The translations under genes and the position numbers were made by a program. Below the pieces are notes generated by a model. It saw nothing but the letters and a program-made list of their open reading frames with translations. It was not told where the DNA came from and searched no databases. DNA of 57,562 nucleotides from Candidatus Adlerbacteria bacterium RIFCSPLOWO2_01_FULL_51_16 (GTDB lineage Bacteria > Patescibacteriota > Minisyncoccia > Phycocordibacterales > SBAW01): the NCBI GenBank assembly GCA_001775485.1, contig MEWX01000003.1:1-57562 (forward strand), in the 5' to 3' direction. Positions 23,839-45,737 of this stretch are shown here, piece by piece; the first letter of the stretch is position 1, and every line of letters starts with the position of its first letter.

Positions 23839-23875
23839 ATACTAAAACAGCCCGAGCCCTGCTTTTATAACATAA

Positions 23876-24850: not shown

Positions 24851-24856
24851 GTGGAA

Positions 24857-25117: not shown

Positions 25118-25461
25118 ATATAAAAGTAGTTAGCTAGTAAATCCTAACCATCTATGGTCAGTATACCATTTGTGCACTTGGAGGGATAGCTTACGAACCA
25201 TCAGATGGGAGGAAATGTTCCCTTATCCCAGCGTTTCTCTTGGGCAGATGAGAAGCCTGCTGGCTATCGTTCAATAAAACTGTATCCCTGCCTCGTATAA
25301 CAGAGTTTAGCAGAATTGTGCCGCATTATGAAGAGGGAGCGCCAGCCGTTCTCTCTTTTTGAATTTGGGTGGTACGTGTTTTCCTTTCGAGTTTTTTATT
25401 CGCGGCGGGGATGCCCTATACCAGTTGGAGTATTTTTATATAAACTTCGTCGCTCGGCATC

Positions 25462-25788: not shown

Positions 25789-25796
25789 AGTCAGGT

Positions 25797-26465: not shown

Positions 26466-26845
26466 ACTTGTATTTTACCAAAATCTGATACTCAATTCAA
26501 TGACATACGTTCTGACTGGTACGTAACAATACCGTACTGATACGAACATACCAGTGGGTAACTATTTAGTGCCATCCCTATACACCCAAACTCGCTAATG
26601 GTACTCCATAAAACAGTGCCTTGTTTACCTTCTGGTTAATCGTTTATGACGTAGCATCCATTGTCCTGAATATGCCCCTACTGCTACGGGGAGGACAAGT
26701 AGCAGGTTTAACTCCTGTATAACAGGATTGACTGGGATTATGGCGGGATAAAGAAAAGGGGGGTGCCCTCGTTTCTCTCGGTTCTTTTTACGTCAAAACC
26801 CAGAGGCTCTTTTCAAACTACACAGGGGCAGATTTGCTTTATTGA

Positions 26846-28495
26846 TTATGAGAATATTTTTTCTACAATCTCCTTCAATCTTGTAGGAATGCTGGCAACG
26901 TCAATGTCCTTAAACGTCTTGAATGCCTTAAATGGTTTGTTGCCACCAGCAGGAATAACTACTCCGCCATTTTCGCAAACCTTTTCAAAATTTGGGTCAA
27001 GAACTTCTATGCTGCCGAGTCCTTCGGATAAATTCACCTCGTCTTCAATTTTCTGACTACTTGCTTGATTGTCCGTATCCTTGTCATAAATAACTACATA
27101 GGGAAACTTAAAAGCGTTTAGAACCTTCGAGAAAAATGGTATTGCATCTTTGCTGCCGCATTCCACGATAGTTATGCCGTAATCATAAAAAAGATATTCT
27201 GGTTTTACTTTCTGGGCAATAAGTGGCAAAACAACTTTTTCAGTATCACCTTCAACCAAGACTACTTTTTTACCAAAAAACATCTCACTGCGTTCTGGGT
27301 CAAACTCATTCAAGAGCTTAAAGTTTTTCCTCTCCTCTTCTACTGCAAAAATATCTTTCTGATATTGAATAATCTTAGTTCCAATCTCAAGGTTGTTCTT
27401 TACTGCGATGCCGATTGATTTGTACTCACCCATATCAACAAAGAAGCTGGAGTGTGTAGTAAAAACTACTTGGTCTGTTTTAGTAATTTCTTTAAGCAAG
27501 GCAAACATCGCCCGTTGCATCTGTGGATGTAAGTAAAGTTCAGGCTCTTCAATCCCAAAAATCAGCGCTTTTGCTTTTTCACCCTGCTCCTTCTTGAGTA
27601 AGTCAGCGTAAGCTCGAAAGATTACAAAAATTACCGACCTCTGCATTCCGTGCCCTTTATTTTCTATTGCAGTAGAAATACCGTCATCCACCATTATCTT
27701 TGTCCCAGATTGAAAGACATCTTTCAAGCTCGGTGGCGTTACATCGAGCTTTATTGTTGTGCCTTTCATATGTGCGGAGAGTTTCTCGCTCAACATTGTC
27801 TCGAACTCTTTTAGTTGGGCGATTCTGCCATCTTGTGCATCGTTTTCTCCCATCAATAATTTCGTAAATTGCTCGTTGACCTTTTTAAGTTCCGCATCTT
27901 GCAAAACACTACTAAGCATAGCGTTGATTATCTGCCCAAATCTGGACTTCTCGGTTATTTTTGCCTCTTCCTTAACATCCTTAACGGCTGGAACGTAGAG
28001 AAAGTCTGGTAAGTATCCATTTGCAACTTGTGCCCAACCAAAAGGTTTGGGCTTCCAGAAATACTTTTTATCGGTAGATGTGAACGGTTCAATTTCTTCT
28101 TTATCTGTAATTTCAACCGCGTCCTTTTTATCTTTTTCGTTTTCAAACTTTTCTTCCAAGATAACTGCAAACAATCGTTGCGTTTCTTCACCTTCAAAGA
28201 AATACTCTTTACGAATTATAACAGTCTCTCCGTCTTCCAGTAGATATTTTCCAAAAGTAGTTTTTGCTTCCGCGTTCAAATCACGAAACCAAACTTGGAT
28301 GATAGTCTTCTCACCACAATCATTAAAAAAATGAGCATCAAGTTTTTTCGTATCACTAAAAAATAAGTCCAGCGCTTTTAAGACATTGGACTTCCCAGCG
28401 TTATTCTCTCCGATGAAAGCCATTAAATCCAAAAAATCAATTCGCTCGGACTTAAATGACTTGAAGTTTTTAATAAATACTCTTGAAATTTTCAT
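26846..28495 (-). CDS. OLD-family nuclease (ABC-type ATPase + C-terminal TOPRIM)
   Basis: 549 aa. N-terminus MKISRVFIKNFKSFKSERIDF..FIGENNAGKSN (Walker A, K35), GHGMQR, Walker B IFGIEEPELYLHP, TTHS. TOPRIM motifs VVLVEGDTEKVV and VVIYDKDTD. ATGA overlap with the upstream gene. Confidence 0.85.
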   Translation of the reverse strand: MKISRVFIKNFKSFKSERIDFLDLMAFIGENNAGKSNVLKALDLFFSDTKKLDAHFFNDCGEKTIIQVWFRDLNAEAKTTFGKYLLEDGETVIIRKEYFFEGEETQRLFAVILEEKFENEKDKKDAVEITDKEEIEPFTSTDKKYFWKPKPFGWAQVANGYLPDFLYVPAVKDVKEEAKITEKSRFGQIINAMLSSVLQDAELKKVNEQFTKLLMGENDAQDGRIAQLKEFETMLSEKLSAHMKGTTIKLDVTPPSLKDVFQSGTKIMVDDGISTAIENKGHGMQRSVIFVIFRAYADLLKKEQGEKAKALIFGIEEPELYLHPQMQRAMFALLKEITKTDQVVFTTHSSFFVDMGEYKSIGIAVKNNLEIGTKIIQYQKDIFAVEEERKNFKLLNEFDPERSEMFFGKKVVLVEGDTEKVVLPLIAQKVKPEYLFYDYGITIVECGSKDAIPFFSKVLNAFKFPYVVIYDKDTDNQASSQKIEDEVNLSEGLGSIEVLDPNFEKVCENGGVVIPAGGNKPFKAFKTFKDIDVASIPTRLKEIVEKIFS

Positions 28496-29373
28496 AACGT
28501 TGATTCATAGGACTGCCTTATCAAATCCAAAACGTATGACACATCGTCTTTGGATTTTAATTTGATTCTTCCTTTGTAGCCCCATTCAAAGGAGCTAATA
28601 TCTTTTATCATCCCTTTCGGGTCAATTTTGTGGTCATAACGGGAATCTCGTACTAAAACGTCTATATAGCTCTTGCCGAACTCAAAGCGCACAAAACTCT
28701 TTGTGGTACGGTAGGTAATACCTACTTTTTGGTCTGCTTTTTCTTCGACGTTCGCCCATTTCTTTATTTCTTCTTGCAACGCATAAAAAATTGCCTTAAC
28801 GTCGTCGTTAACATTACTCAAATGGTAATCAACATTGTAAGCCCCCTCCTCTTTTCTCTTTGTAGTTTCGGCAACAGGCTTTACTGTCTCGGAGCTATAC
28901 ATTGTTTCCAAGAACAAAATATCGGAGCTGTATGGAGTGTACTTTATCAATTCGACACTGTTTTTTACTTGGCGCGCTGCCGAAAGAGTGTAACGGTCAA
29001 AACCTTGGGCAATGAGTATAAGTCGAGGACTGTCCCAAATAACCTTGCTTTCCTTACCGAGTTTATCTGCTACTAATAAATCAAATAGACGCTTATTTTC
29101 CTTGAGCCAATCAATATAGAAAAGTCCTTGGGATAGAATGTTATCCTTTTCTCCCCACTTATATTCGATAATGACTGGTGTGCCCGTCTCATCAATCGCC
29201 AACGTATCAATGCGTCCATCCTTTGTTTTATACTCATTTCCTAAAAAGCGCAGTCCCAGCAAACTTTCAAGATTTTCTGCAAAAAAATCTCGCAAAGCCG
29301 CTTCGTCCTTAAATTGGCGAAGGTCAACTGGAACTTGATGGGCTTTCTTACTTTTGATTTGAAAGAGTGCCAT
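28492..29373 (-). CDS. NucS/DUF91-like PD-(D/E)xK nuclease-fold protein with DUF5655-like C-terminal domain
   Basis: 293 aa. KDGRIDTLAIDETGTPVIIEYKWGE gives D...D...ExK (D56/D61, E70, K72). The C-terminal half (ITYRTTKSFVRFEFGKSYIDVLV...) resembles the domain usually fused to DUF91. Family assignment is from memory only. Confidence 0.55.
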   Translation of the reverse strand: MALFQIKSKKAHQVPVDLRQFKDEAALRDFFAENLESLLGLRFLGNEYKTKDGRIDTLAIDETGTPVIIEYKWGEKDNILSQGLFYIDWLKENKRLFDLLVADKLGKESKVIWDSPRLILIAQGFDRYTLSAARQVKNSVELIKYTPYSSDILFLETMYSSETVKPVAETTKRKEEGAYNVDYHLSNVNDDVKAIFYALQEEIKKWANVEEKADQKVGITYRTTKSFVRFEFGKSYIDVLVRDSRYDHKIDPKGMIKDISSFEWGYKGRIKLKSKDDVSYVLDLIRQSYESTL

Positions 29374-29374
29374 A

Positions 29375-31984
29375 TTAGTTTGCTAAAGATTGACTTATAA
29401 ATTGTTGGTAACTCTCGACTTCCTTGTATTTCACTTCAATGACTTCAAAATGCTTCTTGGCAGAACTGATTTTGGCTTGTTCAGATGGTCGGAGATTACC
29501 AATATCGCCCTTCGTTTCAATCACAAAATAAACGCGCTCCCTTTCTTCATTCCCCTGCAAGTCGCGTTTGGCAGTAACGATTGCCCAGTCGGGATTGTAG
29601 CCGCCAACGGGAGTTTCAACTTTGAACCAGTTAGGCAACTTGATGAACAGTTTAATACGCTCGTCGCTGTCCAGTTCAACCGCGAAATTCTTTTCAACAT
29701 CAGAGTCATACACCACCGCGTCATAGATGGAGTTCTTCACGGGCTGAATTACGTCCTTGTAGCTTGGAATGTGCTCGAATTGGCTTACAGAGTAATTGTC
29801 GGAAACAATTTCATAACGAACTTGGTCAACATAATCCTTGAGCAATCCTTCTTTGATGATGCGTGATACTTCAAAGCAAAATCTTTCAGGGTTATTTAGA
29901 AACGCACTAACGTTATTAGCTTTAGTAAGAATCGCGGCAACAGTTTGACGCGTCAGTTTAGTTTCGTTCTTAATCAGCTCAACACAATCAATGACTCGGC
30001 TCATTTGACTTAGGTCTTCGGCTCTTGTGCCAATAACTCGTGCCGTAACTCCGCCTTTGCCAATATCAACACCAGCACGCTCAACCCGAACTTGCGGCTT
30101 GGCAATTCTTAATTGTTGAATCCTTGCGGCGCAACTCTCAACAAGGCGCTCACTGTTTACCTTCACAAAATACCTCGTCTTCTTCGATATACGCTCCCAG
30201 ATGGCACTAAAGTCGTTGTCCTTATCAAAACCTTTCTTGAGCTTCACTGTATGCTTACGCTTGGCGTTATAAGGCAACGGCGGGGCTTTGTAGATGCCAT
30301 CCTCAACCAACTCGCCTTGGAGTTGCCCAACATACTCTGCGTAGCTTTCATTGGCAACAACGGAGAGCAAATTGACGTTTTTTAGAAAGACGCGCTCGCC
30401 GTCCTGATTGACGCATAGACGCATACCGCGTCCAATCTCTTGCCGCTTGCGAATGGTTGAGATGGTTTCCCGTAGTGTGCAGATATTGAAAATGTTTGGA
30501 TTGTCCCACCCCTCCTTGAGCGCGGAGTGAGAGAAGATAAACTCGGTTGGCTCATCAAAAGAAAGAAGCCGCTCCTTGTCTTTCATTATCAGCTCGTATG
30601 CTTCTTGGTTCTCGGCAATACTTGATTCTCTTTCAAGATATTCTTCGCCGCGCTTGGCGAAATAACCCTTGTGCACGTGGTCAGCATCCAGCGCCTTCAG
30701 TTTGTATTCATCTTTGAGGCGATTGAACTCTTTAACAAATGTTTTGCGAATGTAGCCGTCTGATTGAACATAATTATCAACTTTGTCTATAAAGAACAAA
30801 GAGAGCACTTTAATGTCCATCTCTCGCAACTGCTCCCGCTTTTCAAAATGGCGGCGTATGGTTTGTTCAATCTGCTCACGCATTACTTGTTCGCGGTTAC
30901 CTCCGATTCCTTCGCCCTGCTTAATTTCGATATGGTTACGAAAACGAATCTTGCCAAACTGCCCGATGTCGGGAGCATCTGCATCAAGCGCTTCCACGAT
31001 GTAACCCTCATACACATCGTTATTGGTCTTCTGCGCCAAGTCATCACCTTGCTTGAGCATTAGGCGCTTCTTTTTAGGGTTGCCGCTCGCGTCTTTCGCT
31101 ATTGCTTCAACTTTCGCCTTAATAACTTTGCCTGCCGCAACAGATGATAGGTTAAGGTAGGGACGGGATATGCCCGTGTCATCGTCAGTAACAGAATACA
31201 CCTCAATCTTCTTCACCAGTCCCAGTTGGTAAGCATCAAAGGGTGTGAGCTGATACATCAAGTTGTAGAGATTACGGTGCGTTGCAGAATAGCGAAGGCG
31301 GAATAACGAGTTAAAGTTTTTGAGTCCCTCTTTTGTTGCTTCGCCCTCCATATTCTGCGGCTCATCAAGAATCAGAATTGGATTGGTCTTTTGGATAAAA
31401 CTTATCGGTTGCTCACCCTGCATCTGGTCTCGCGCGGCGTAAAGCACATTCTTATCGCTGTTGAACGCTCCAACTGTCATCACCATTATGTTGATGTTGC
31501 TTGAGTCGGCGAAATGTTTTACCTGTGAGATATTTTTTGATTGGTATTCATAGAAGCGATATGGGACGTTATCGTATAGCTCGGCAAAATGTTCTTTGGT
31601 AATTTGGAGCGCTTTCATAACCCCTTCGCGGATGGCGACAGAAGGAACTAAGATAATAAACTTTTTCCATCCAAAGCGTTTGTTGAGTTCAAAAATGGTG
31701 CGGAGATAAACATAGGTTTTACCCGTGCCCGTTTCCATCTCAATCGAAAAGTCAAAGTCATCAACCACGCCACCATTGGTAATCTTGTTACGCTCCTGCA
31801 CTTTGTGAACGTTATTAAGAATCTCCTCTTGGGAGAGCGTGAGGTAGTTTGGATAGATGCCCAAAAGTCCGCTCCCAGCAATTATTTTACTTGCCGTTGC
31901 TTTCTCTTGTCCTTCAAAAGCATCAACGATAGCGTTGATTGCTTCAATCTGAAAATCTTGGTTGGCATCAAACTTAAACTTCAT
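29375..31984 (-). CDS. res: Type III restriction enzyme, Res subunit (SF2 helicase + PD-ExK nuclease)
   Basis: 869 aa; motif I METGTGKTY, motif II LILDEPQNMEG, C-terminal nuclease NPDWAIV...YFVIETKGD. ATGA overlap with the mod stop. Confidence 0.88.
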   Translation of the reverse strand: MKFKFDANQDFQIEAINAIVDAFEGQEKATASKIIAGSGLLGIYPNYLTLSQEEILNNVHKVQERNKITNGGVVDDFDFSIEMETGTGKTYVYLRTIFELNKRFGWKKFIILVPSVAIREGVMKALQITKEHFAELYDNVPYRFYEYQSKNISQVKHFADSSNINIMVMTVGAFNSDKNVLYAARDQMQGEQPISFIQKTNPILILDEPQNMEGEATKEGLKNFNSLFRLRYSATHRNLYNLMYQLTPFDAYQLGLVKKIEVYSVTDDDTGISRPYLNLSSVAAGKVIKAKVEAIAKDASGNPKKKRLMLKQGDDLAQKTNNDVYEGYIVEALDADAPDIGQFGKIRFRNHIEIKQGEGIGGNREQVMREQIEQTIRRHFEKREQLREMDIKVLSLFFIDKVDNYVQSDGYIRKTFVKEFNRLKDEYKLKALDADHVHKGYFAKRGEEYLERESSIAENQEAYELIMKDKERLLSFDEPTEFIFSHSALKEGWDNPNIFNICTLRETISTIRKRQEIGRGMRLCVNQDGERVFLKNVNLLSVVANESYAEYVGQLQGELVEDGIYKAPPLPYNAKRKHTVKLKKGFDKDNDFSAIWERISKKTRYFVKVNSERLVESCAARIQQLRIAKPQVRVERAGVDIGKGGVTARVIGTRAEDLSQMSRVIDCVELIKNETKLTRQTVAAILTKANNVSAFLNNPERFCFEVSRIIKEGLLKDYVDQVRYEIVSDNYSVSQFEHIPSYKDVIQPVKNSIYDAVVYDSDVEKNFAVELDSDERIKLFIKLPNWFKVETPVGGYNPDWAIVTAKRDLQGNEERERVYFVIETKGDIGNLRPSEQAKISSAKKHFEVIEVKYKEVESYQQFISQSLAN

Positions 31985-33723
31985 ATTGTTTTTAATTCCA
32001 CGTTCAGCCCAAGATTTGCTTTAGCGCTGTCATCGAGGGCACTATCCAAGCAAATAAAGACCTTCCCTTTATAATTCTTGCCCGTTAGTTCGCTTACGGT
32101 CTTATCGTCAATCTTCTTGTCGAGGCATACCAAAAGTCGTTTCTCGCCATCGGAAACAACATAAACATCATTCTTCCCAAGTTTAGTTTCGTTGACTTTA
32201 GAGTTCAGAGAAAGCCCTTCTTTGACAATGTTCTCATAAACCATATCAACGGCTTTGGTATCATCAAACAGTTTAGCTTGCTTGGCTTTTGCGAGATAAC
32301 TTTCAAATGTCTTCTTGTTCTCCTCCTCGGATTTTGTGGGGTCAAACTCAAAAGCATTTTCAGGGTAGTTAGATTCAGCAAGTTTGAATGTCTTGAAAGT
32401 TGCCTCAATCTGTTTGAGGCGGTCTTTGGCAATATCTGCGACGGTATTATGCCCAGATTTATAATCTGGGCTTTTCACATCAACTACCTCTGGCAACTGA
32501 ACTAAAATAAACTTTCTTGAACCCGTGTCAGCGTAATTTTGCTCCAACACTGCTTCCGCCGTTGAACCAGAACCAGCAAAAAAATCGAGCACGAGAGCGT
32601 TTTTATCATTAACAACTTGAAGCATCCTTTGGATAAGTTTAGGATTCTTGCCACCATTTTTTATCCAAGTTGAATCCGATTCAATAACATCCGTCCAGTT
32701 GGTATCAAGATTAGTTTCTTCGCTTGCGGGTAATCTATATTGCGGCTTACTAGTATTCGGAGATAAACGCAAATCGCCAGCATCAATCATTGTCATTGCT
32801 CTTTCCTTCTCATACATCCAATGCCTACCTGTCGGCGGCTTCTGCCCAAATAATTCGTATTCCATTGTTGGTCGCACCCCTGGCGCATCAAATGCGTGCC
32901 ATCGTTCCTCCTTCTTTTGATACTTTTTAGGAGGCACTACTAAAGTAGCGTCGCTTTTTGCGTAGCATAAAATGTAACCTACCCCTTGATTGAGGGCTTT
33001 TACTGTGTCAGTTTCTTGGATATTCTTTTTTACTCTTGAAACAAAAATTGCATTTCTAAAGTTTTCTTCACCAAACACTTCGTCCATTATCATTCGCAAA
33101 TGGTGAGCTTCGTTATCGTCAATGCTTACGAAAATAATGCCGTCATCGCGTAGTAGATTCCACGCCAACTTAAGGCGCGGATACATCATTGAAATCCAAT
33201 CGCTGTGATAACGTCCGCTTGTTTCTCGATTCGTGGTCAAGCTCGCACCGTTCCCGTCTTTCTGTCCTGTTTGCTTGAGGTAATTTGAGAGAGGCGCGGA
33301 GAAATCATCGTGATACACAAAGTCGCCGCCAGTGTTGTATGGAGGGTCAATGTATATCATTTTTACCTGCTCAAAGTATGCCTTCTGAAGAAGTTTGAGG
33401 ACTTCAAGATTGTCGCCTTCAATAAAGAGGTTCTCACTTTCATCGAACTTCACGCTCTCATCTTTGACGGGACGAAGCGTAGCTTTGCTTGGAATCAAGA
33501 CATTCTTGATGGCGTTACTTTTGCCAGCCCAAGAAAAGTTAAACTTCTCGATTCGTTCATCAATCGCACTACCAAGAACGGCTCGGAGTTTGTCCCAGTC
33601 AATCTTATTCTCACTAAATGCTTCGGGGAGGACTTTGTGCAACTCCACTAACTTCTCCTCGGAAAGATTTGAGGAGGTGAGATTTACTTTTTTGTGATTC
33701 TTTTTTGATGTATCCATATCCAT
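31981..33723 (-). CDS. mod: Type III DNA methyltransferase, Mod subunit (beta-class N6A/N4C)
   Basis: 580 aa; IYIDPPYNTGGDF (motif IV) precedes LDFFAGSGSTAEAV (motif I), the beta-class order typical of Type III Mod. Confidence 0.88.
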   Translation of the reverse strand: MDMDTSKKNHKKVNLTSSNLSEEKLVELHKVLPEAFSENKIDWDKLRAVLGSAIDERIEKFNFSWAGKSNAIKNVLIPSKATLRPVKDESVKFDESENLFIEGDNLEVLKLLQKAYFEQVKMIYIDPPYNTGGDFVYHDDFSAPLSNYLKQTGQKDGNGASLTTNRETSGRYHSDWISMMYPRLKLAWNLLRDDGIIFVSIDDNEAHHLRMIMDEVFGEENFRNAIFVSRVKKNIQETDTVKALNQGVGYILCYAKSDATLVVPPKKYQKKEERWHAFDAPGVRPTMEYELFGQKPPTGRHWMYEKERAMTMIDAGDLRLSPNTSKPQYRLPASEETNLDTNWTDVIESDSTWIKNGGKNPKLIQRMLQVVNDKNALVLDFFAGSGSTAEAVLEQNYADTGSRKFILVQLPEVVDVKSPDYKSGHNTVADIAKDRLKQIEATFKTFKLAESNYPENAFEFDPTKSEEENKKTFESYLAKAKQAKLFDDTKAVDMVYENIVKEGLSLNSKVNETKLGKNDVYVVSDGEKRLLVCLDKKIDDKTVSELTGKNYKGKVFICLDSALDDSAKANLGLNVELKTI

Positions 33724-33736
33724 TTCAAATTAGGGC

Positions 33737-33967
33737 TTACTTCTTTTTTCTCCGAAATTTTGCTACCTCGACTTGGAAGTTAGCGTTGTCCCGAAGAAAC
33801 TTCTCGTAGGATTCTTTAGGGATTCGCCAGTAACCAATCTTTATTGCGTGTAGCCGCTCATCTTCAATATAGCGAAGGATGCTTCGTGGATGGACTCTTA
33901 ACTTATCGGCTACTTCACGGAGAGTATAAAAATCTCGTTCTTCTTTTGGTTGTTTGGGTTTGCGCAT
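33737..33967 (-). CDS. excisionase-family/MerR-like HTH DNA-binding protein
   Basis: 76 aa; FYTLREVADKLRVHPRSILRYIEDERLHAIKIGYWRIPKESYEKFL. Lies 13 nt upstream of mod. Confidence 0.7.
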   Translation of the reverse strand: MRKPKQPKEERDFYTLREVADKLRVHPRSILRYIEDERLHAIKIGYWRIPKESYEKFLRDNANFQVEVAKFRRKKK

Positions 33968-34034
33968 ACAAGAACAGTTTACCGCATTTTTTGTAACTGT
34001 GCAAATGTGTACACTTGTGATAAAATGATTTTAT
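33968..34034. promoter_or_regulatory. divergent promoter/operator region of the element
   Basis: Minus strand: -35 TTGCAC (34004-33999), 17-nt spacer, -10 TAAACT (33981-33976), ATG 8 nt later. Plus strand: extended -10 TGATAAAAT (34018-34026), ATG 8 nt later. Perfect palindrome GTGTACAC at 34007-34014 lies between them. Confidence 0.5.
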
Positions 34035-34775
34035 ATGGAAATGGATATGGCAACCACAACACAAGAAAAAGACATCCAAGCTATTGCCGACATCATCCAG
34101 CAGCACTACCTTGCCAGTGGAGATGAGTCAGTTGGCGTACCCGTGAAATACTTTGAGCAAAAGAGCTTTGGGCATCACGACGTCAAGATTGCTTTATCAA
34201 TTCTCACAAAGAGTGGGGCTGTCCAGAATTATCATCGTTGCTGGGGACATAACGATATAGATAAACAAAGTGGCACTGTGTCATTCACGGAAGTTGATAC
34301 AAAAGAGCCCAAAGAGAAGTTTGAGGGGGTTGTTCAAGCATTTGAGGCGTATCACATACTCATTAAGTCGGACATCCTAAAACAGCTTGCGCAGCCCTCA
34401 AAAAAGAGTGCTCGCTCAAGCAAAGCGAAGGAAGATGTTGCTATACAGCTTTTTCTTGATAATGACGGCGATTTATATAAAGAGCCCAAAAAATCATATT
34501 GCTACCCACTACTCCAAAACAAAGAGCCATTAAAGTTGATTCTTTACTTCATCAAAAACCCGAATCGTAGCTATGAAGAATCAACCCAAATGATTGCGCT
34601 ATCGCTGGAAAAAGACCCTCAATACTTGAGAGCCGAAATTGGCAAGATAAATCGCATTGCCTTAAATCGGCTCGGTTTAGGTAAGGAAAAATTGATACAA
34701 GCAAAACAAAACAGTGGCTACCGATTGAATCCAAAGATAAAAATTACTGCTGAAAAAGAGATACTCCTAAGATAA
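34035..34775 (+). CDS. hypothetical protein with C-terminal winged-helix-like segment (putative element regulator)
   Basis: 246 aa. The C-terminus ...IGKINRIALNRLGLGKEKLIQAKQNSGYRLNPKI resembles OmpR/CadC-type wHTH ends. Confidence 0.5.
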   Translation: MEMDMATTTQEKDIQAIADIIQQHYLASGDESVGVPVKYFEQKSFGHHDVKIALSILTKSGAVQNYHRCWGHNDIDKQSGTVSFTEVDTKEPKEKFEGVVQAFEAYHILIKSDILKQLAQPSKKSARSSKAKEDVAIQLFLDNDGDLYKEPKKSYCYPLLQNKEPLKLILYFIKNPNRSYEESTQMIALSLEKDPQYLRAEIGKINRIALNRLGLGKEKLIQAKQNSGYRLNPKIKITAEKEILLR

Positions 34776-34805
34776 CCATAGATACTGTGGACAAGTTCGA
34801 GTAAG

Positions 34806-34830
34806 GCAGCTCAAAACGAGCTGCTTTTTT
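34806..34830 (+). terminator. intrinsic terminator
   Basis: GCAGCTC-aaaac-GAGCTGC followed by T6. Confidence 0.75.
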
Positions 34831-34891
34831 CGTTTCAAAAACTACCTTCGGATTATGTTCGGCTACGGCACGCGACTGTTAAGTTTTCTGT

Positions 34892-35143
34892 ATGAAGTCA
34901 AATACAGAAAGCCAAGTCGCAATTTCTGATTTAGGACTCGCAGCGCTATTGGTAACTCTCCAATTCGAACTGGTTAGTTTGGAGAGAACGAGCGAAAAGC
35001 GAGTTGACTTCGTATTCGCAAACTCGAAAGAGGTCGAACGAGCAATCGCGGATTTTTGGGAAGACAAGAATGTAAACGTCCCGATTCAAACGCTGTTCAA
35101 TAACTTTCGTCTTCTGAAGAATCGCCTTTACGCCTTCAAATAA
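34892..35143 (+). CDS. small hypothetical protein (phage/element-type; possibly DUF5659-like)
   Basis: 83 aa ORF in the element's plus-strand module. Family guess is from memory only. Confidence 0.45.
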   Translation: MKSNTESQVAISDLGLAALLVTLQFELVSLERTSEKRVDFVFANSKEVERAIADFWEDKNVNVPIQTLFNNFRLLKNRLYAFK

Positions 35144-35144
35144 T

Positions 35145-35327
35145 ATGCGCCTCAAGCCAGAACAATTTGAGCGTTTGAGAAAGCCATTCGATAAGTATGG
35201 GGCATTTGAGGGGCGTACGAAGGATGAAGTCGAAGAAATACTCAATGGCGTGATGAATTATTACCTCACACTCGCAAATATAAACCTCCGCTTAAAGCGG
35301 GAAGAAAAAAACAATGGAACAAAATAA
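35145..35327 (+). CDS. small hypothetical protein
   Basis: 60 aa; starts 2 nt after the previous stop and overlaps the PrimPol ORF start. Confidence 0.4.
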   Translation: MRLKPEQFERLRKPFDKYGAFEGRTKDEVEEILNGVMNYYLTLANINLRLKREEKNNGTK

Positions 35328-37374
35328 TATGGAAACAAATAATCAAATCTTAGAAGCTGCTTTACACTACGCTGAACTTGGCTTGTCAGTCATACCTGTT
35401 GGGCGAGATAAAAAACCCCTCATCGAATGGAAGAAGTACCAAGAAGAGCGCGCATCACAAGAACAAATTAAAGAATGGTGGGCACAATTTCCAGACGTAA
35501 ATGTTGGAGTCGTAACGGGTAAAATATCTGGGATTGTTGTCGTGGATGTTGAATCTGGTGGCGATGTGAAGAATCTGCCGCCCACTGTCATATCAAAAAC
35601 GGGGGGTGGTGGCTGGCACTGTTTCTACTTGTACCCTAATCTGCCAGTCCAAAATGGTGTGAGAGTACGAGAGTTGACCGACATTAGAGGAGATGGTGGG
35701 TATGTTGTGATGCCGCCATCACTCCACAAATCTGGGAATCGGTATGAATGGTTAGTCTCGCCAAACGATGCGGATTTTGCCGAATTGCCAGAATGGGTAT
35801 TACAAAAAACTTCAAAACAAAAGCAGAAAACCAATTGGCAAGAGTTCATCTCAAGGGAAAATCCAAATGGCGCAAGGAATATGAGCGCGACACAGCTTGC
35901 GGGCAAGTTGCTCTATCACATACCGATAGAGTTTTGGGATGTTTCTGGTTGGGCAACGATGAAAGAGTGGAATGCACAAAACAATCAACCACCATTGACC
36001 GAGGGTGAATTGAGAGGAGTTTGGGATAGTATCAAGAAATTGGAACTTGGAAGACGGGAAAAGGCATCATCAACTCCAACGGCACCTACCAAACGCGTTT
36101 TTGAAGCGCCGATGGGAGCAGATGTAACGTTTGCGGAATGGCGCGAGACAGTCCAACGAAACTTTCCAGAACTGGTATTCCCTGCGGAGGTTTCCCTTGC
36201 TGTCGTATCTCAAATACTTATTACAGAAATCACCAATCCTTTCGCATTGGTGCTTGTAGATGTGCCTGCATCGGGAAAAACGATAACGTTGAACTTTTTT
36301 GCTGAAATTGAAGGACTTTCGTATGCGACTGATAAGTTTACACCTGCCTCATTTGTATCAAATGCAGCAAACGTGAAAAAGAAAGACCTTCAAGAAGTAG
36401 ATTTACTTCCGCGCATACAGTACAAAACTCTGCTTGTCCGCGACTTTGCAACTTTATTTTCCAAGCGGGATGACGACTTAGCTGAATTGATGGGATTGCT
36501 CACGCGCGTCCTTGATGGCGAGGGATTAAATACTGATTCAGGAGTACACGGCAAGCGGCACTACGTTGGAGAGTACCTTTTTATGATGCTGGGCGCATCA
36601 ACGCCTATACCTCCAAAAGTCTGGAAACTAATGGGCGCCCTCGGTTCACGTTTATTCTTCTTAAAAATGAATGCGCAGGACAAATCAGAAGAGGAGTTGA
36701 TAGAACAGCTTGTTACTCAAACAGCTAAAAATAAAGAGCGGGAATGCCGAACAATTACAAAGGACTTTCTCTACACTCTTTGGCGTAAGTATCCGAATGG
36801 TTTTGATTGGGATAGGGCAAAGGATAAAAAAGAATTTCTTGCAGTTATCGTTCGTTGCGCTCAACTTCTTGCGCACTTACGAGGCAATATAAATGTTTGG
36901 AAGGAGTGGGACGAGGAAGGCAGAGTGTACAACTACAACCCGCCCACTATTGAAAAGCCAGACCGCATTAACCAACTTCTATACAACCTTGCTCGTGGAC
37001 ACGCATTAGTGTGCGGCAGAACGCAAATCAATGAGGATGATTTGAAATTGGTTATTGAAATAGCGACTGATAGCGCTCCCACCATACGCTCGAAGCTGTT
37101 TCGGAAACTGCTTGAAAAGAATGGGGTGATGAGCACGGGAGAAGTCGAGATAGCGCTTGATTGTTCCAAACCAACCGCATTAAAGGAGATGGAAACGCTA
37201 AAGTTTTTGGGCATTTGCTACTTCGCATCAAACAGTTATGGACAGGTCGGCGAACCAGAAAAAGAGATACACCTTGTCGAAGCATTCAAGTGGTTTCTGG
37301 GTGAAGAATGTATACGGCTTCGAGGTATCCCCCTGCCACCGAAGCAAGAACAGCTACTTGGAGGCGATGGGTAA
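35314..37374 (+). CDS. bifunctional primase-polymerase (PrimPol) N-terminal domain fused to a P-loop NTPase-like C-terminal region
   Basis: 686 aa. LGLSVIPVGRDKKPLIEWKKYQ, VGVVTG..SGIVVVDVE (DxE-type), GGGGWHCFY, IRGDGGYVVMPPSLH. Later LVLVDVPASGKT (Walker A-like). Confidence 0.8.
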   Translation: MEQNNMETNNQILEAALHYAELGLSVIPVGRDKKPLIEWKKYQEERASQEQIKEWWAQFPDVNVGVVTGKISGIVVVDVESGGDVKNLPPTVISKTGGGGWHCFYLYPNLPVQNGVRVRELTDIRGDGGYVVMPPSLHKSGNRYEWLVSPNDADFAELPEWVLQKTSKQKQKTNWQEFISRENPNGARNMSATQLAGKLLYHIPIEFWDVSGWATMKEWNAQNNQPPLTEGELRGVWDSIKKLELGRREKASSTPTAPTKRVFEAPMGADVTFAEWRETVQRNFPELVFPAEVSLAVVSQILITEITNPFALVLVDVPASGKTITLNFFAEIEGLSYATDKFTPASFVSNAANVKKKDLQEVDLLPRIQYKTLLVRDFATLFSKRDDDLAELMGLLTRVLDGEGLNTDSGVHGKRHYVGEYLFMMLGASTPIPPKVWKLMGALGSRLFFLKMNAQDKSEEELIEQLVTQTAKNKERECRTITKDFLYTLWRKYPNGFDWDRAKDKKEFLAVIVRCAQLLAHLRGNINVWKEWDEEGRVYNYNPPTIEKPDRINQLLYNLARGHALVCGRTQINEDDLKLVIEIATDSAPTIRSKLFRKLLEKNGVMSTGEVEIALDCSKPTALKEMETLKFLGICYFASNSYGQVGEPEKEIHLVEAFKWFLGEECIRLRGIPLPPKQEQLLGGDG

Positions 37375-37438
37375 TCAATAAAGCGAATCTGACGCTGTGC
37401 ATAAAGGTCGAAAATTAACAACAATAAACATTAAATCT

Positions 37439-37693
37439 ATGGAAGAAAAAGGAATTGTGTTTAGTATCGTGTTTGATGAGGAGGAAGTTCAGAGTTTCGC
37501 GGAAGCAAACTTTGAGCGAGAACTGACAGAGCTGGAGTTGAACCGAATGAAAATGCACTGGTACGAAGATGGCGCTGCGTATGGGGCAAGAACGGAACTG
37601 CTGGCAAGCGCTATAAAAATGGCGATAAATACAAAGGATTACAATTTCGAGCGAACGGATAGAGATTATTTGGAAAGTGGTGGCGGGAAGTAG
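37439..37693 (+). CDS. small hypothetical protein
   Basis: Track ORF 37397..37693 starts with GTG. The ATG at 37439 (MEEKGIVFSIVFDEEE...) is preferred. Confidence 0.4.
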   Translation: MEEKGIVFSIVFDEEEVQSFAEANFERELTELELNRMKMHWYEDGAAYGARTELLASAIKMAINTKDYNFERTDRDYLESGGGK

Positions 37694-37731
37694 TGCTGTT
37701 TCTTGAGCTGAAACGTAGTGTGGATAGCACC

Positions 37732-37759
37732 TTGACACAAATGTACACCTTGCTATACT
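37732..37759 (+). promoter_or_regulatory. near-consensus sigma-70 promoter
   Basis: TTGACA (37732-37737), 16-nt spacer, TATACT (37754-37759). Confidence 0.6.
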
Positions 37760-37766
37760 GGTAACG

Positions 37767-37878
37767 TAGCCTACATCCGTATATAAGTCGCAGGGTATTT
37801 TTATCCTTCAATCCAGAAAGGGGTTCATCCTCTGTCTGCCATTGAAGGATGTCCTTGCGACATTCGGATGTGGGCTAC
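37767..37878 (+). ncRNA. 112-nt extended hairpin starting at the predicted +1 (candidate sRNA or 5' leader structure)
   Basis: Three stacked helices: 14 bp (37767-37780 / 37865-37878, one G-U), 9 bp (37788-37796 / 37853-37861) and 10 bp perfect (37803-37812 / 37841-37850). The apical loop is 28 nt. Confidence 0.45.
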
Positions 37879-37936
37879 CAGATAGATGTGGTGAGCCCCT
37901 TTTTGGTTTATGGGGATTGCCGCGAGCATATAACTT

Positions 37937-38377
37937 ATGAACGGCAACGACAACAAAAAAAGTGGTTGGGAAACCATAAAATATCTTTCAGGAATTATTT
38001 GTATGGGATTCTTGTACGGGATATTCTCATTGGTCTTTCTGGCTATGTTACTGCAATGGACTTTAGAAATAGATATTACCGAGTTTGATAAAATATACCG
38101 TCTTCTATTTCTTGTTTGGGCTGGATGGGTAATAGGTTTGCACGTATGGCTGCGGAAAGAAAAAAGAATACCGCAATCGCCAAAAGAAGGAACACAAACA
38201 AAGAAGGAGAACCAGGAAACAGACCCGCGAAGTTATGACCCGTTCTACATATCGGACAAGTTCAATCCTAATCTTAGTAAGTTAAACAAGAAGAACACAG
38301 AAGAAGAATCGGATGTAGTGTTCTTCCGTAAAAATCCGTCGAAATCAAATGAAAATAACGAACAAACAAAATTATGA
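37937..38377 (+). CDS. small membrane protein, function unknown
   Basis: 146 aa; two hydrophobic helices then a charged tail. 4-nt overlap with the recombinase start. Confidence 0.5.
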   Translation: MNGNDNKKSGWETIKYLSGIICMGFLYGIFSLVFLAMLLQWTLEIDITEFDKIYRLLFLVWAGWVIGLHVWLRKEKRIPQSPKEGTQTKKENQETDPRSYDPFYISDKFNPNLSKLNKKNTEEESDVVFFRKNPSKSNENNEQTKL

Positions 38378-40023
38378 CCAACAATCAACCAAAAATTAAA
38401 GCGGTACTTTACTGCCGCGTATCATCTAAAGAGCAAGAAGAGGCTGGCTATTCTTTGCCGTCTCAAGAAAAGCTCTTAAAAGAGTATGCCGATAGAAAGG
38501 GCTTTGTCATTGCAAAAACTTTTTTAATCGCGGAATCTGCAAGTGGAGCAAAGCAGAGAAAAGTGTTTAGCGAGATGATTAAGTTCACGGAAAAAAACAA
38601 GGTTGCCAATATCCTTTGTGAGAAAGTTGACCGACTTACAAGAAATCTGAAAGATGCCTTAGCTGTAAACGATTGGCTTGAAGAAAAGCCAGAGCGACAA
38701 GTACACTTTGTCAAAACAAATCTCGTCATCCACAAAGGCGCGAAGTCCGATGAGAAGTTTCGTTGGGATATTGAGATAGTGCTCGCCAAAAAATACATTG
38801 CCAACCTTTCAGAAGAGATACGCAAGGGACAAAAAGAAAAGATAGCTCAAGGGTGGCTTCCAACCAAACCACCGCTTGGCTACAAGACAGTTGGTGAAAA
38901 AGGGCATAAAACCCAAGTGATTGAAACAGAAATAAACAAGAAAGGAGAGGAAGTAATCAGTGGGACTGCTCGGCTTATCAAACAAATGTTTGACTGGTAT
39001 GCCACGAGCAACTACTCCCTCTCAAAACTTGAGGTTGAGCTGTATAAGGCTGGATTGCGCACAAGAAGCGGTAAGAAGCTCGGTATCAGCCGCATCCATC
39101 TCTTGTTGTCAGAGCCATTCTACTACGGCAAAATCCGTTGGAATAACGAACTTTATGAGGGCAAGCAAGAGCATCTTATTGGCAAAGATATATTCGATAA
39201 AGTGCAAACTATCCTCAAAAGGAAAATTAAAAATCCTCATTTCGCTACGCACAATTCCTTATTCAAAGCGAAAATCCATTGTGAGCATTGTGGTGGAATG
39301 GTTACTTGGGAACGCCAGAAAGGTCATTGGTATGGGCATTGCAACAATCACGGTGAGTATCGCAAGTGTCCAAAGAAGACCTACATTCGAGAGGAGAAGG
39401 TTGAGGAGCAACTTATAGGATTCTTTGAAACAATAGCACCGAAAAATAACGAAGTACTTGAAGTGATTGAGGAAATCGTAAGACAAGAGAACGCTCAAAA
39501 CATTATGGAGCGAGAAACTGAAATTACGAGATTGAGCGGGTTACTTGCCTCAATACGAAAACAGAAAGATAAATACTTTGAGGCGAAGATAAATGAGAAA
39601 GCTCCACTTGAGTTTTGTGAAAGAAAAATTGCCGAGTGTGTTGAAGAAGAATCAAATCTTGAATCAGCTCTGATTCTTGTAAGTGATAAAAGTGATGAGT
39701 ACCAGCAACTACGCTTGGTGATTCACGAACTTGCTTACAAAGCGAAGGAAATATACGAAAAAGCCACTATTGATGAGAAGAGATTACTGTTCGCTCAAAT
39801 CTTTACGAACATCGTCCAAGATGGGCTTAGAATCAAGCCAAACTACACTTTAGCGGCTGAATACTTGGCTACTTGGGCGCCGAAGCTCAATCAGGATTAC
39901 GAACGCGAGAAAAGCCTTACTACAAAAGCAAAAACAGGCAATTCTGTGCCTGTCTCTACTGTCTGGTGCGCAGGAGAGGATTTGAACCTCCAATCCCTTG
40001 CGGGAGCTACCACCTCAAGGTAG
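38374..40023 (+). CDS. large serine recombinase (integrase)
   Basis: 549 aa. Resolvase catalytic domain (KAVLYCRVSSKEQ...GYSLPSQ), recombinase domain, Zn-ribbon (CEHCGG...HCNNHGEYRKCPKK) and a coiled-coil tail. The last 60 nt overlap tRNA-Leu antisense. Confidence 0.9.
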   Translation: MTNNQPKIKAVLYCRVSSKEQEEAGYSLPSQEKLLKEYADRKGFVIAKTFLIAESASGAKQRKVFSEMIKFTEKNKVANILCEKVDRLTRNLKDALAVNDWLEEKPERQVHFVKTNLVIHKGAKSDEKFRWDIEIVLAKKYIANLSEEIRKGQKEKIAQGWLPTKPPLGYKTVGEKGHKTQVIETEINKKGEEVISGTARLIKQMFDWYATSNYSLSKLEVELYKAGLRTRSGKKLGISRIHLLLSEPFYYGKIRWNNELYEGKQEHLIGKDIFDKVQTILKRKIKNPHFATHNSLFKAKIHCEHCGGMVTWERQKGHWYGHCNNHGEYRKCPKKTYIREEKVEEQLIGFFETIAPKNNEVLEVIEEIVRQENAQNIMERETEITRLSGLLASIRKQKDKYFEAKINEKAPLEFCERKIAECVEEESNLESALILVSDKSDEYQQLRLVIHELAYKAKEIYEKATIDEKRLLFAQIFTNIVQDGLRIKPNYTLAAEYLATWAPKLNQDYEREKSLTTKAKTGNSVPVSTVWCAGEDLNLQSLAGATTSR

Positions 40024-40050
40024 TGCGTCTACCAATTTCGCCACCTGCGC
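39964..40050 (-). tRNA. tRNA-Leu (GAG), class II, CCA encoded
   Basis: Hand-folded: acceptor GCGCAGG/CCTGCGC, anticodon stem CTACC/GGTAG with loop TTGAGGT, long variable arm CCC-GCAA-GGG, T arm GGAGG-TTCAAAT-CCTCT, ACCA end. Confidence 0.88.
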
Positions 40051-45730: not shown

Positions 45731-45737
45731 CCGAAAA

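What the first reader, a model, noticed from the sequence alone, without database searches (positions are those of the whole stretch)
39964..40023. The serine recombinase ORF ends inside tRNA-Leu, with its last 20 codons antisense to the tRNA
The recombinase frame stays open across the element/tRNA boundary. It stops at 40021-40023, inside the D-arm region of the minus-strand tRNA-Leu (39964..40050).

The C-terminal ...WCAGEDLNLQSLAGATTSR is therefore encoded by tRNA sequence. If the crossover site lies in or next to the tRNA 3' end, the recombinase C-terminus would differ between the integrated and excised forms. That could act as a built-in switch on integrase activity or directionality.
Basis: seen in the sequence. 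Interest (0 to 1): 0.6.

Follow-up and report, generated by a model that had tools for sequence, protein, structure and literature searches.

The report
Recombinase gene split by its own integration
A mobile defence island sits at a tRNA gene because its serine recombinase cuts inside its own coding sequence, so integration swaps the enzyme's conserved last 33 residues for meaningless tRNA-antisense codons and excision restores them.

Summary
A 549-aa large serine recombinase (LSR) ORF (38374-40023, +) runs 60 nt into the antisense of tRNA-Leu(GAG) (39964-40050, -).

The read-through itself is incidental. Its cause is that the element's attP lies inside the recombinase ORF.

- The crossover core is GTGC, at attR 39966-39969 and attL 25172-25175. 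It covers tRNA positions 71-74.
- The 14.8-kb island (Old nuclease, type III R-M, PrimPol) lies between the two cores.
- The real C-terminus, 33 conserved residues, is encoded at the far end of the island (25176-25274, same strand and same codon phase).
- Excision would give a 565-aa enzyme. Integration replaces those 33 residues with 17 residues encoded by host tRNA antisense.

The arrangement is family-wide.

- 78 of 128 relatives with a visible stop end inside an antisense tRNA.
- 33 of 59 with at least 5 kb of upstream sequence carry a detached tail upstream.
- A circular 9-kb element carries the intact long form.

The tail shows protein-level selection. It is predicted to dock at the base of the coiled-coil. 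Whether the swap controls directionality is untested. I found no description of this arrangement for serine recombinases in print.

The parts
38374..40023 (+). Large serine recombinase ORF in its integrated form (549 aa). Codons 1-532 are element-borne. The last 17 codons and the stop are antisense tRNA-Leu.
   Evidence: (R15, V16 and S17 invariant)
39964..40050 (-). Intact tRNA-Leu(GAG). Its acceptor and T arm form the B' half of attB.
39966..39969 (.). attR core GTGC (tRNA positions 74-71 read antisense). The crossover lies within it.
25172..25175 (.). attL core GTGC, in the same codon phase as the attR core.
   Evidence: Homology to related elements L013 and L096 starts at 25170.
25176..25277 (+). 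Detached 3' segment of the recombinase gene: 33 codons plus a TAA stop. It holds the conserved C-terminal tail, which is joined to codon 532 only after excision.
   Evidence: Tail HMM score 65.1, E 8.6e-18; translation; 7 synonymous versus 2 non-synonymous codon changes against L013
25176..25199 (.). P' half-site. GGA lies at +11..+13 (25184-25186) and GAAC at +22 (25195-25198) from the discriminator complement at 25173.
   Evidence: logos
39970..39988 (.). B' half-site in the tRNA. GGA lies at +11..+13 (39978-39980) and the T-loop GAAC at +17 (39984-39987) from 39967, 5 bp closer than in P'.
39927..39960 (-). Element-borne terminator-like hairpin plus T-run just downstream of the tRNA, encoded antisense within the recombinase linker codons (the P arm).
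   Evidence: (-22.2 kcal/mol, z -3.5)
25278..38373 (.). Island cargo and maintenance genes. They are DsrE-like 25462-25788(-), SHOCT 25797-26465(-), Old 26846-28495(-), PDC-S18/DUF5655 28492-29373(-), type III Res 29375-31984(-), Mod 31981-33723(-), HTH_17 33737-33967(-), DUF5659 34892-35143(+) and PrimPol 35314-37374(+).
23765..25171 (-). Left flank outside the element: tRNA-His, DUF475/TerC and an 86-aa EF-Tu-domain-2-like ORF (24857-25117).

Best explanation
A 14.8-kb integrative element occupies 25176-39965, bounded by GTGC cores at 25172-25175 and 39966-39969. Its own large serine recombinase inserted it at the 3' end of tRNA-Leu(GAG). The element's attP lies inside the 3' end of the recombinase ORF.

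Site layout:
- The P arm is the linker codons of about 518-530. On the other strand these encode a terminator hairpin for the tRNA.
- The crossover is in GTGC, at codons 531-532.
- The P' arm is the start of a conserved 33-codon tail.
- attB is the last nucleotides of the tRNA (positions 71-74). The acceptor/T arm is the B' half-site, and the universal T-loop GAAC serves as the zinc-ribbon-domain motif. It sits 5 bp closer to the centre than the matching GAAC in P', the register shift described for serine integrases.

Consequence: integration separates the tail from the gene. The tail now lies 14.8 kb upstream. The ORF instead reads into antisense tRNA until the first stop. Excision rejoins body and tail in frame, giving 565 aa.

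Shown: the anatomy, the frame relations, the element boundaries, the family-wide recurrence and a circular relative with the fused form.

Supported by prediction: the tail is a protein-level module that docks on the helices after the coiled-coil and on the coiled-coil base.

Inferred: the tail-bearing enzyme, the only form present on the circle, performs integration. The tail-less enzyme, the only recombinase I found among the island ORFs I scanned, performs excision. The tail therefore most likely tunes the coiled-coil or RDF-site region for the integrative reaction. I give about 0.3-0.35 to it being a true directionality gate.
For: Left and right boundaries:
- Same-genus genomes have tRNA-His, DUF475, about 20 nt, then tRNA-Leu with no island (L002, L004, L009).
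- Their homology to the window starts at 39964.
- Homology to related elements in other hosts (L013 at tRNA-Tyr, L096 at tRNA-Lys) starts at 25170 on the left. On the right it runs through the recombinase gene to the tRNA end.

The tail in the window:
- An HMM of 20 long-form C-termini hits window 25179-25271 at E 8.6e-18.
- attL and attR share the core in the same codon phase.

Family tallies, from 144 non-duplicate loci of which 128 show a stop:
- 78 end inside an antisense tRNA.
- 11 carry the intact long tail.
- 39 are classed as other.
- 8 of 9 'no tRNA' cases checked are tRNA-Asn genes with a group I intron.
- 33 of 59 tRNA-overlap loci with at least 5 kb upstream have a detached tail on the same strand, 3.4-9.1 kb upstream.

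Circular form: L130 and L129 are circular permutations of one 8,984-bp element. L130 has a 55-nt terminal repeat. It carries the fused long form and ARAGORN, run on L130 only, found no tRNA gene.

Selection on the tail:
- In 56 distinct tails, 44 of them detached, entropy at codon positions 1/2/3 is 1.24/0.81/1.63 for columns 12-35.
- 41 of 56 tails stop 31-32 codons after the conserved W.

Half-site register: GAAC lies at +17 in 67 of 69 B' arms and at +22 in 48 of 55 P' arms. GGA lies at +11..13 in both. The phiC31 preprint 10.1101/2025.05.02.651858 reports the 5-bp register shift of the attB zinc-ribbon domain (passages).

Structure predictions:
- AF2 of the natural long form P0075 gives the tail pLDDT 83-90 at residues 531-550.
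- Complex prediction on body 1-519 against tail 520-553 scored 0.63; the best of 3 controls scored 0.00. That mark was reached by 58 of 80 solved complexes and 2 of 110 mismatched pairs, and these counts hold only roughly because my own alignment was used. The runs agree in at least 90% of contacts and the partner's pLDDT is at least 76.
- The contacts are at residues 357-365, 431-464 and 481-497.
- These are two parts of one natural polypeptide.
- Solved LSR chains align only to about model residue 481-497, so a pass from memory is unlikely.
Against: - No attP or clean attB junction for this element appeared in the four runs laid. These were contigs only. There was one weak joint, 25078->39966, with a side of 27 nt.
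- Long-form genes also occur inside large chromosomal contigs. L031 sits in an ICE-like region of a Chitinophagaceae MAG, and L029 and L138/L139 are similar. The fused form is therefore not exclusive to free circles.
- 26 of 59 tRNA-overlap loci with at least 5 kb upstream show no detached tail. Their islands may exceed the 10-kb flank, as the window's does.
- The first 7 tail codons are partly constrained at the DNA level: the third position of the CGA codon is conserved. Part of the 'protein' conservation is therefore really the P' site.
- A conserved HTH_17 (excisionase-type) gene in the island could be a conventional RDF. That would make a tail-based switch unnecessary.
- The 86-aa ORF left of attL is not found in 59 of the 60 other same-genus genomes; one shows a weak match (E 7.6e-4, G024) to part of a 541-aa frame. 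The 'host' status of 24851-25171 is therefore unclear.
- All structural evidence is prediction on a 56%-identical homologue, not on the window's protein.
Confidence: 0.8

Rival explanations
1. The overlap is a chance read-through. The functional protein ends near residue 517, and the tail-like segment at 25176-25274 is an unrelated or dead relic.
For: - Amino-acid conservation of the body ends around ...PKLNxDYE (invariant P503 and E510).
- The tRNA-encoded residues are not conserved, and their number varies from 2 to more than 20 among relatives.
- 19 stop-free codons are not unusual.
Against: - The tail segment matches the family tail HMM at E 8.6e-18.
- It is in phase with the ORF across a shared core.
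- It differs from L013's tail by 7 synonymous and 2 non-synonymous codons.
- The same split recurs in 33 loci.
- A circular relative has the fused gene.
Confidence: 0.04
2. The tail region is conserved only because it is the P' DNA arm of attP. The peptide it encodes has no function of its own.
For: - Tail columns 5-11 overlap the P' half-site. Their third codon positions are unusually conserved: mean entropy 1.20, and the CGA third position 0.48.
- The GGA and GAAC motifs lie there.
Against: - A half-site spans about 27 bp according to the phiC31 preprint passages, yet conservation runs 99 nt.
- In columns 12-35 the third positions are near saturation (1.63 of 2.0) while the second positions are constrained (0.81).
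- W14 and L31 are invariant at the amino-acid level.
- The stop position is fixed in 41 of 56 tails.
- AF2 and the complex prediction place the distal tail confidently on the body.
Confidence: 0.08
3. Integration partly disables the recombinase, as a mild version of archaeal 'suicidal' integrases. Loss of the docking tail destabilises or attenuates the enzyme. This locks the island in place rather than switching directionality. Excision is then rare or needs help such as the HTH_17 protein.
For: - The tail is predicted to pack against the C-terminal helices, so its removal could destabilise them.
- SSV-family integrases split their own gene on integration (PMC7253208, abstract).
- Islands look stably inherited: contigs cover this one at host-like depth of about 8x.
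- No circular junction was seen.
Against: - Detached tails keep a coding signature in 44 distinct integrated copies, which requires recurrent excision and reuse.
- The truncated LSR keeps all three Pfam domains and the catalytic residues.
- It is the only recombinase I found in the island.
Confidence: 0.3
4. The crossover lies deeper in the tRNA, in the T loop or anticodon loop. The element would then carry the tRNA 3' part, as in classical tRNA-targeting islands, and the whole ORF would be element-borne.
For: - Some relatives have 19-22-nt copies of the tRNA 3' end upstream (L022, L061, L051).
- Several ORFs appeared to end in tRNA halves with no full tRNA nearby.
Against: - The window holds no second copy of any tRNA-Leu segment longer than chance.
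- The 'tRNA halves' are intron-bearing tRNA-Asn genes.
- In L061 the in-frame tail junction lies about 95 nt beyond the 20-nt copy.
- attL/attR identity in the window is only 4 nt.
- The acceptor-stem G3:C70 variant of this host's tRNA is matched on both strands.
Confidence: 0.03

Closest known systems
Large serine recombinases / serine integrases (phiC31, Bxb1, A118/LI, SPbeta)
   Same: - Same three-domain protein.
- Short asymmetric att sites with a small shared core.
- RD-type motif in the same register in attP and attB half-sites.
- ZD-type motif shifted by 5 bp (phiC31 preprint passages).
   Different: - attP lies inside the enzyme's own ORF.
- The target is the 3' end of tRNA genes of many identities.
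- There is a C-terminal extension of about 70 residues beyond where the solved chains align. Its last 33 residues are removed by integration.
- No RDF has been identified.
SSV-family 'suicidal' tyrosine integrases of archaea (PMC7253208, abstract read)
   Same: The recombination site lies within the integrase ORF. Integration splits the gene and excision restores it. As I recall, and not checked here, the targets are commonly tRNA genes.
   Different: - Different enzyme superfamily and chemistry (tyrosine versus serine).
- There the gene is split into two inactive pseudogenes. Here only the last 33 of 565 codons are detached, and an intact three-domain enzyme remains.
Integration-dependent immunity of mycobacteriophage BPs (PMC4557955, abstract read)
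   Same: attP lies inside a coding gene, so the prophage-encoded product lacks 33 C-terminal residues present in the viral form. The two forms differ in activity.
   Different: - There the gene is the repressor and the removed tail is an ssrA-like degradation tag.
- Here the gene is the recombinase itself.
- 0 of 56 tails end in Ala-Ala.
- The tail is predicted to be a docked helix.
Classical tRNA-targeting genomic islands (Islander; PMC4383910, abstract start seen in listing) and tycheposons (10.1101/2020.12.28.424599, passages)
   Same: The island sits next to an intact tRNA with the integrase gene at the tRNA-proximal end. It carries defence and replication cargo, including a primase-polymerase.
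   Different: - Those elements use tyrosine integrases almost exclusively (910 of 937 tycheposons).
- They leave a displaced tRNA fragment as a direct repeat.
- Here there is a serine recombinase, a 4-nt core and no displaced fragment.
Engineered integrase-RDF fusions (PMC5737554, listing abstract only)
   Same: A polypeptide appended to the C-terminus of a serine integrase changes which pair of sites it recombines.
   Different: That fusion is artificial and the appended part is a whole RDF. Here a natural 33-residue tail is gained and lost through the reaction itself, and its effect on directionality is untested.

Membership tests
Large serine recombinase | N-terminal resolvase catalytic domain with the conserved Arg and Ser nucleophile motif | tested here: met
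   PF00239 E 4.2e-20 at residues 10-160. R15, V16 and S17 are invariant in 37 sequences.
Large serine recombinase | Recombinase domain followed by a zinc-ribbon domain | tested here: met
   PF07508 at 198-283 and PF13408 at 296-348. Four invariant Cys: C303, C306, C323 and C332.
Large serine recombinase | Coiled-coil motif inserted in the zinc-ribbon domain, and an overall LSR fold | tested here: met
   Tested on homologue P0075 (56% identical), not on the window protein. Helices span 348-395 and 401-426. Foldseek E 9e-18 to SPbeta integrase complexes. VIA Z 17.4, rmsd 14.0, 446 aligned to 9dxh_A; Z 14.9, rmsd 5.6, 216 aligned to 6dnw_A.
Large serine recombinase | attP and attB half-sites share motifs, with the ZD motif 5 bp closer to the centre in attB | tested here: met
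   GAAC lies at +17 in 67 of 69 B' arms and at +22 in 48 of 55 P' arms. GGA lies at +11..13 in both.
Large serine recombinase | 2-bp staggered cleavage at a central dinucleotide; directionality set by an RDF | not testable with these tools
   The shared core is 4 nt in the window. Arm symmetry puts the centre near +1/+2. No biochemical data exist.
SSV-type self-splitting ('suicidal') integrase | Recombination site inside the integrase ORF, so that integration splits the gene | tested here: met
SSV-type self-splitting ('suicidal') integrase | Tyrosine recombinase catalytic domain | tested here: not met
   Pfam gives only serine-recombinase domains.
SSV-type self-splitting ('suicidal') integrase | Both halves are inactive pseudogenes after integration | tested here: inconclusive
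   The integrated ORF keeps all domains. Activity of the tail-less form is unknown.
Integration-dependent switch of BPs type | C-terminal ssrA-like degradation tag on the non-integrated form | tested here: not met
   0 of 56 distinct tails end in Ala-Ala. Common endings are LV, VQ and LA.
Classical tRNA-gene island (Islander definition) | A displaced tRNA fragment forms a direct repeat with the regenerated tRNA end | tested here: not met
   No repeat of the tRNA-Leu 3' part was found in the window. attL and attR share only GTGC.

The most novel reading that the evidence does not exclude
The tail swap is a self-contained directionality device. The reaction product rewrites the enzyme.

- On the circle, the 565-aa form has its tail docked on the coiled-coil base, the region where RDFs act in phiC31. 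This form is competent for attP x attB only.
- In the chromosome, the tail-less form has that surface free. It becomes competent for attL x attR, either on its own or by admitting a small RDF such as the HTH_17 protein.

This would be a serine integrase whose directionality is encoded by the topology of its own gene.
Probability: 0.3. Interest if true: 0.85.

Novelty: new variant of a known kind. Interest (0 to 1): 0.7.

Why it matters
Serine integrases are widely used genome-engineering tools, and their one-way behaviour normally depends on a separate directionality factor. This is a natural family in which integration removes, and excision restores, a conserved C-terminal module predicted to sit at the coiled-coil base. 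It gives a directly testable case of directionality or activity being coupled to the state of the element.

It also shows how one recombinase family can use many different tRNA genes. It reads the universal T-loop and acceptor end as its attB half-site, exchanges only the last few nucleotides, and brings its own terminator for the tRNA.

The family is abundant in Candidate Phyla Radiation bacteria, whose mobile elements are poorly known. In this window it carries anti-phage defence cargo.

Tried and rejected
- Displaced tRNA-Leu fragment. I searched the window with the repeat finder, a 25-nt pattern with up to 3 mismatches, blastn-short and a self-hit scan. Nothing exceeded chance. A 10-mer at 25687 lies inside a coding ORF and was judged chance.
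- Apparent attP forms. I first read 'tRNA 3' half plus non-tRNA sequence' next to several recombinases as attP forms. Rfam showed they are group I introns in tRNA-Asn (8 of 9 loci). I dropped that reading.
- TGG as the core. I first took TGG at 25179/39964 as the core. Alignment with the L013 and L096 junctions moved it to GTGC, two codons upstream.
- 19-22-nt tRNA-end copies in L022, L061, L051 and L056. These are not the in-frame junctions, at least in L061, and remain unexplained.
- Reads. Only Logan contigs were available for X1-X4. No circular (attP) junction was listed. The one island-skipping joint has a 27-nt side and is unreliable. A further 10 joints were not shown.
- Viral contigs. 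Only 2 distant relatives were found and they were not used further.
- Close integrated relative of the circular element L130. None was found; the best is 63% identical.
- The 86-aa ORF left of attL. It was not found in 59 of the 60 other same-genus genomes; one shows a weak match (E 7.6e-4, G024) to part of a 541-aa frame. I could not show that it is a host gene.
- Long-form genes in large contigs. I annotated L031 only and did not resolve why the fused form sits in a chromosome there.
- Literature. Searches returned no paper describing a serine recombinase with attP inside its own ORF or tRNA-end targeting in CPR bacteria. I read listings only, apart from the papers named in the report. Supplementary tables of large LSR att-site surveys were closed and may hold such cases.
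- ARAGORN in intron mode changed some calls. Six 'Thr' intron calls are probably tRNA-Asn. I merged both runs and did not curate identities.
Full report
**Observation.** ARAGORN places tRNA-Leu(GAG) at 39964-40050 on the minus strand, and Rfam agrees. A 549-aa ORF at 38374-40023 (+) carries the Resolvase, Recombinase and Zn_ribbon_recom domains. It runs 60 nt into the antisense of that tRNA. The stop lies opposite tRNA positions 28-30, which is the anticodon stem rather than the D arm.

**Setting.**
- The window comes from a 0.6-Mb, 30-contig genome of the Candidate Phyla Radiation type (names).
- GC falls from about 0.50 to 0.37-0.45 between about 25 kb and 40 kb.
- That stretch encodes an Old-family nuclease, a PDC-S18/DUF5655 protein, a type III restriction-modification pair, an HTH_17 protein, DUF5659 and a primase-polymerase.
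- In three same-genus genomes the order is tRNA-His, DUF475, about 20 nt, then the tRNA-Leu 3' end (L002, L004, L009). The low-GC block is therefore an insertion.

**The family ends in tRNAs.**
- The recombinase has 1502 relatives at E <= 0.001 among 8000 scored candidates.
- Many of the 120 listed end in peptides that are plainly antisense T-arms.
- I fetched 162 loci; 144 have distinct recombinase DNA.
- 16 of these run off their contig. Of the other 128, 78 end inside an antisense tRNA, 11 carry a longer conserved tail, and 39 are classed as other.
- Many of the 39 are intron-bearing tRNA-Asn genes or are cut by a contig end. Rfam found a group I intron directly after the ORF in 8 of 9 such loci tested.
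- Targets are mostly tRNA-Asn, and also Gln, Tyr, Leu, Lys, Val, Arg, Asp and Ser.

**The missing C-terminus.**
- Twenty of the 120 listed relatives are 541-572 aa long and share a conserved tail.
- An HMM of those tails hits window 25179-25271 on the plus strand at E 8.6e-18. That is 13.2 kb upstream of the recombinase start.
- The segment is open and ends at a TAA at 25275-25277.
- Detached tails on the same strand, 3.4-9.1 kb upstream, occur in 33 of 59 tRNA-overlap loci with at least 5 kb of upstream sequence. The figure is 28 of 47 for loci with at least 9 kb.
- The single minus-strand hit is in L137, downstream of the gene.

**The junctions.**
- Printed in the recombinase frame and the tail frame, attR and attL share a short core in the same codon phase.
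- In the window the core is GTGC, at 39966-39969 and 25172-25175. The preceding codon is TGG at attR and TTG at attL.
- Close relatives show the same layout. L013 (86% identical, tRNA-Tyr) has a 7-nt core, L096 (79%, tRNA-Lys) an 8-nt core and L099 (tRNA-Asn) a 6-nt core.
- The core covers the antisense of tRNA positions 71-74.
- Independent boundary check, left side: nucleotide homology between the window and L013 or L096 begins at 25170.
- Independent boundary check, right side: homology to empty-site relatives begins at 39964.
- The element therefore spans 14,794 bp between equivalent core positions.
- In the integrated gene, codons 1-532 are element-borne and the last 17 codons are host tRNA antisense.
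- After excision, codon 532 would be followed by the 33 codons at 25176-25274, giving 565 aa.

**A free form exists.** L130 is a whole 9,039-nt contig with a 55-nt terminal repeat. L129 is an 8,989-nt contig from another assembly. They are 100% identical circular permutations of one 8,984-bp element. It carries the fused long-form gene (P0075, 553 aa), and ARAGORN, run on L130 only, found no tRNA gene.

**The sites look like serine-integrase sites.**
- I aligned 69 distinct attR and 55 distinct tail junctions on the complement of the discriminator base.
- Both right arms carry GGA at +11..+13.
- GAAC lies at +17 in 67 of 69 tRNA arms, where it is the T-loop. It lies at +22 in 48 of 55 P' arms.
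- The phiC31 structural preprint places the recombinase domain at positions 4-15 and the zinc-ribbon domain at 17-27 of attP. It describes a 5-bp register shift of the zinc-ribbon domain on attB (passages).
- The universal T-loop at a fixed distance from the tRNA end thus explains how the family moves among tRNA species.

**The tail is a protein module.**
- Across 56 distinct tails, 44 of them detached, tail columns 12-35 have entropies of 1.24, 0.81 and 1.63 at codon positions 1, 2 and 3. A Trp and a Leu are invariant at the amino-acid level.
- The window's tail differs from L013's at 7 synonymous and 2 non-synonymous codons of 33.
- 41 of 56 tails stop 31-32 codons after the conserved Trp, and none ends in Ala-Ala.
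- Columns 5-11 overlap the P' arm and are also constrained as DNA.

**Where the tail sits.**
- AF2 on P0075, with a 23-sequence alignment, gives a mean pLDDT of 80.4. The coiled-coil is at helices 348-395 and 401-426. The distal tail has pLDDT 83-90.
- The fold is that of SPbeta, phiC31, Bxb1 and A118 integrases.
- Those solved chains align only to about residue 481-497. Residues of about 485-553 are therefore an extension beyond them.
- Body (1-519) against tail (520-553) scored 0.63, with 0.00 for the best of three controls. The mark was reached by 58 of 80 solved complexes and 2 of 110 mismatched pairs, and these counts hold only roughly because I used my own alignment. The runs agree in at least 90% of contacts and the partner's pLDDT is at least 76.
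- The contacts are at 357-365 (first coiled-coil helix near its base), 431-464 and 481-497.
- In phiC31 the RDF contacts the zinc-ribbon domain around the loop and helix that follow the coiled-coil, and the extreme C-terminus (passage). The correspondence I draw is by topology only.

**Mechanism.**
- Shown: attP lies within the ORF, the tail is swapped, and the arrangement recurs across the family.
- Inferred: the tail-bearing enzyme integrates and the tail-less enzyme excises. Each is the only form available in its state, and detached tails stay under selection, which requires repeated excision.
- Open: whether the tail gates directionality (I give about 0.3), merely stabilises the enzyme so that integration attenuates it (about 0.3), or serves another role on the circle.
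- The conserved HTH_17 gene is a candidate conventional RDF.

**Caveats.**
- No circular junction of this particular island was seen; only contigs were available.
- Fused long forms also occur in large chromosomal contigs, for example in an ICE-like region in L031.
- 26 of 59 loci with at least 5 kb upstream lack a detected tail.
- The 320 bp left of attL are not conserved in the genus.
- The structural results are predictions on a homologue.

**Comparison and novelty.**
- Splitting of an integrase gene by its own attP is known for archaeal SSV-family tyrosine integrases (PMC7253208, abstract).
- A C-terminus altered by integration is known for the BPs repressor (PMC4557955, abstract).
- tRNA-targeting islands are classically driven by tyrosine integrases and leave displaced tRNA fragments (PMC4383910, listing abstract; tycheposon passages).
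- I found no report of a serine recombinase with this arrangement. Supplements were closed.
- I therefore rate it a new variant of a known kind.

Noticed in passing
window 39927-39960 (-); 69 related attR regions: The recombinase linker codons encode, on the tRNA strand, a hairpin plus T-run directly after the tRNA 3' end. Integration therefore brings a replacement terminator for the tRNA. In 69 distinct relatives the mean MFE is -16.3 kcal/mol against -6.6 for shuffles. 24 of 69 pass a strict terminator rule, against 4 of 69 shuffles.
   Followed up: partly
L017, L025, L047, L063, L066, L072, L079, L085 (just after the recombinase stop): tRNA-Asn genes of CPR genomes are interrupted by group I introns in the anticodon loop (Rfam RF00028, 58-100 bits). 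Recombinase ORFs without an early stop read on into the antisense intron.
   Followed up: partly
L079 2959-3081, L063 4303-4422, L066 1694-1812, L017 1-103: LOOT RNA motif (RF03000, 55-80 bits) lies inside several related islands. It was not found in the window's island.
   Followed up: no
window 45406-45751: There are four copies of a 39-nt unit that begins with the 3' end of tRNA-Arg, three of them in tandem after tRNA-Arg(CCG) at 45581-45653 (family D1). They look like scars of repeated integration at another tRNA.
   Followed up: no
window 25170-25172 versus 39964-39966: attL reads TTG and attR reads TGG at the antisense of tRNA positions 74-76. The unoccupied tRNA-Leu gene would therefore have encoded CAA, and the element supplies a genomic CCA end. 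Same-genus tRNA-Leu genes vary in whether CCA is encoded.
   Followed up: partly
window 24857-25117 (-): An 86-aa ORF with a weak EF-Tu domain 2 match (E 8.8e-6, below the Pfam cut-off) lies between DUF475 and attL. It was not found in 59 of the 60 other same-genus genomes; one shows a weak match (E 7.6e-4, G024) to part of a 541-aa frame. It may be a remnant of an older insertion at the same site.
   Followed up: partly
L011 (G004:C2:89461-91092): A distant serine recombinase (about 25-28% identical, 553-aa open frame) abuts the same tRNA-Leu(GAG) in another species of the genus and also reads into it.
   Followed up: no
L022 4171-4191, L061 2633-2652, L051 3165-3184, L056 1455-1504: Extra 19-26-nt copies of the target tRNA's 3' part lie near the left ends of some islands. 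In L056 it is a tRNA-like sequence with its T arm replaced by another hairpin. They are not the in-frame junctions, at least in L061, and are unexplained.
   Followed up: partly
L021, L078, L104, L121; L024: Some recombinase ORFs end in a different shared peptide (…PLYHKIRT…), not in a tRNA. A detached canonical tail lies upstream in L021, L121 and L024. This may reflect a second, non-tRNA target site.
   Followed up: no
L031 4183-16509: A fused long-form recombinase lies in a Chitinophagaceae MAG contig among a type IV coupling protein, UmuD/UmuC-like genes and IS66. The family thus also occurs outside CPR bacteria, in conjugative-element-like settings.
   Followed up: partly
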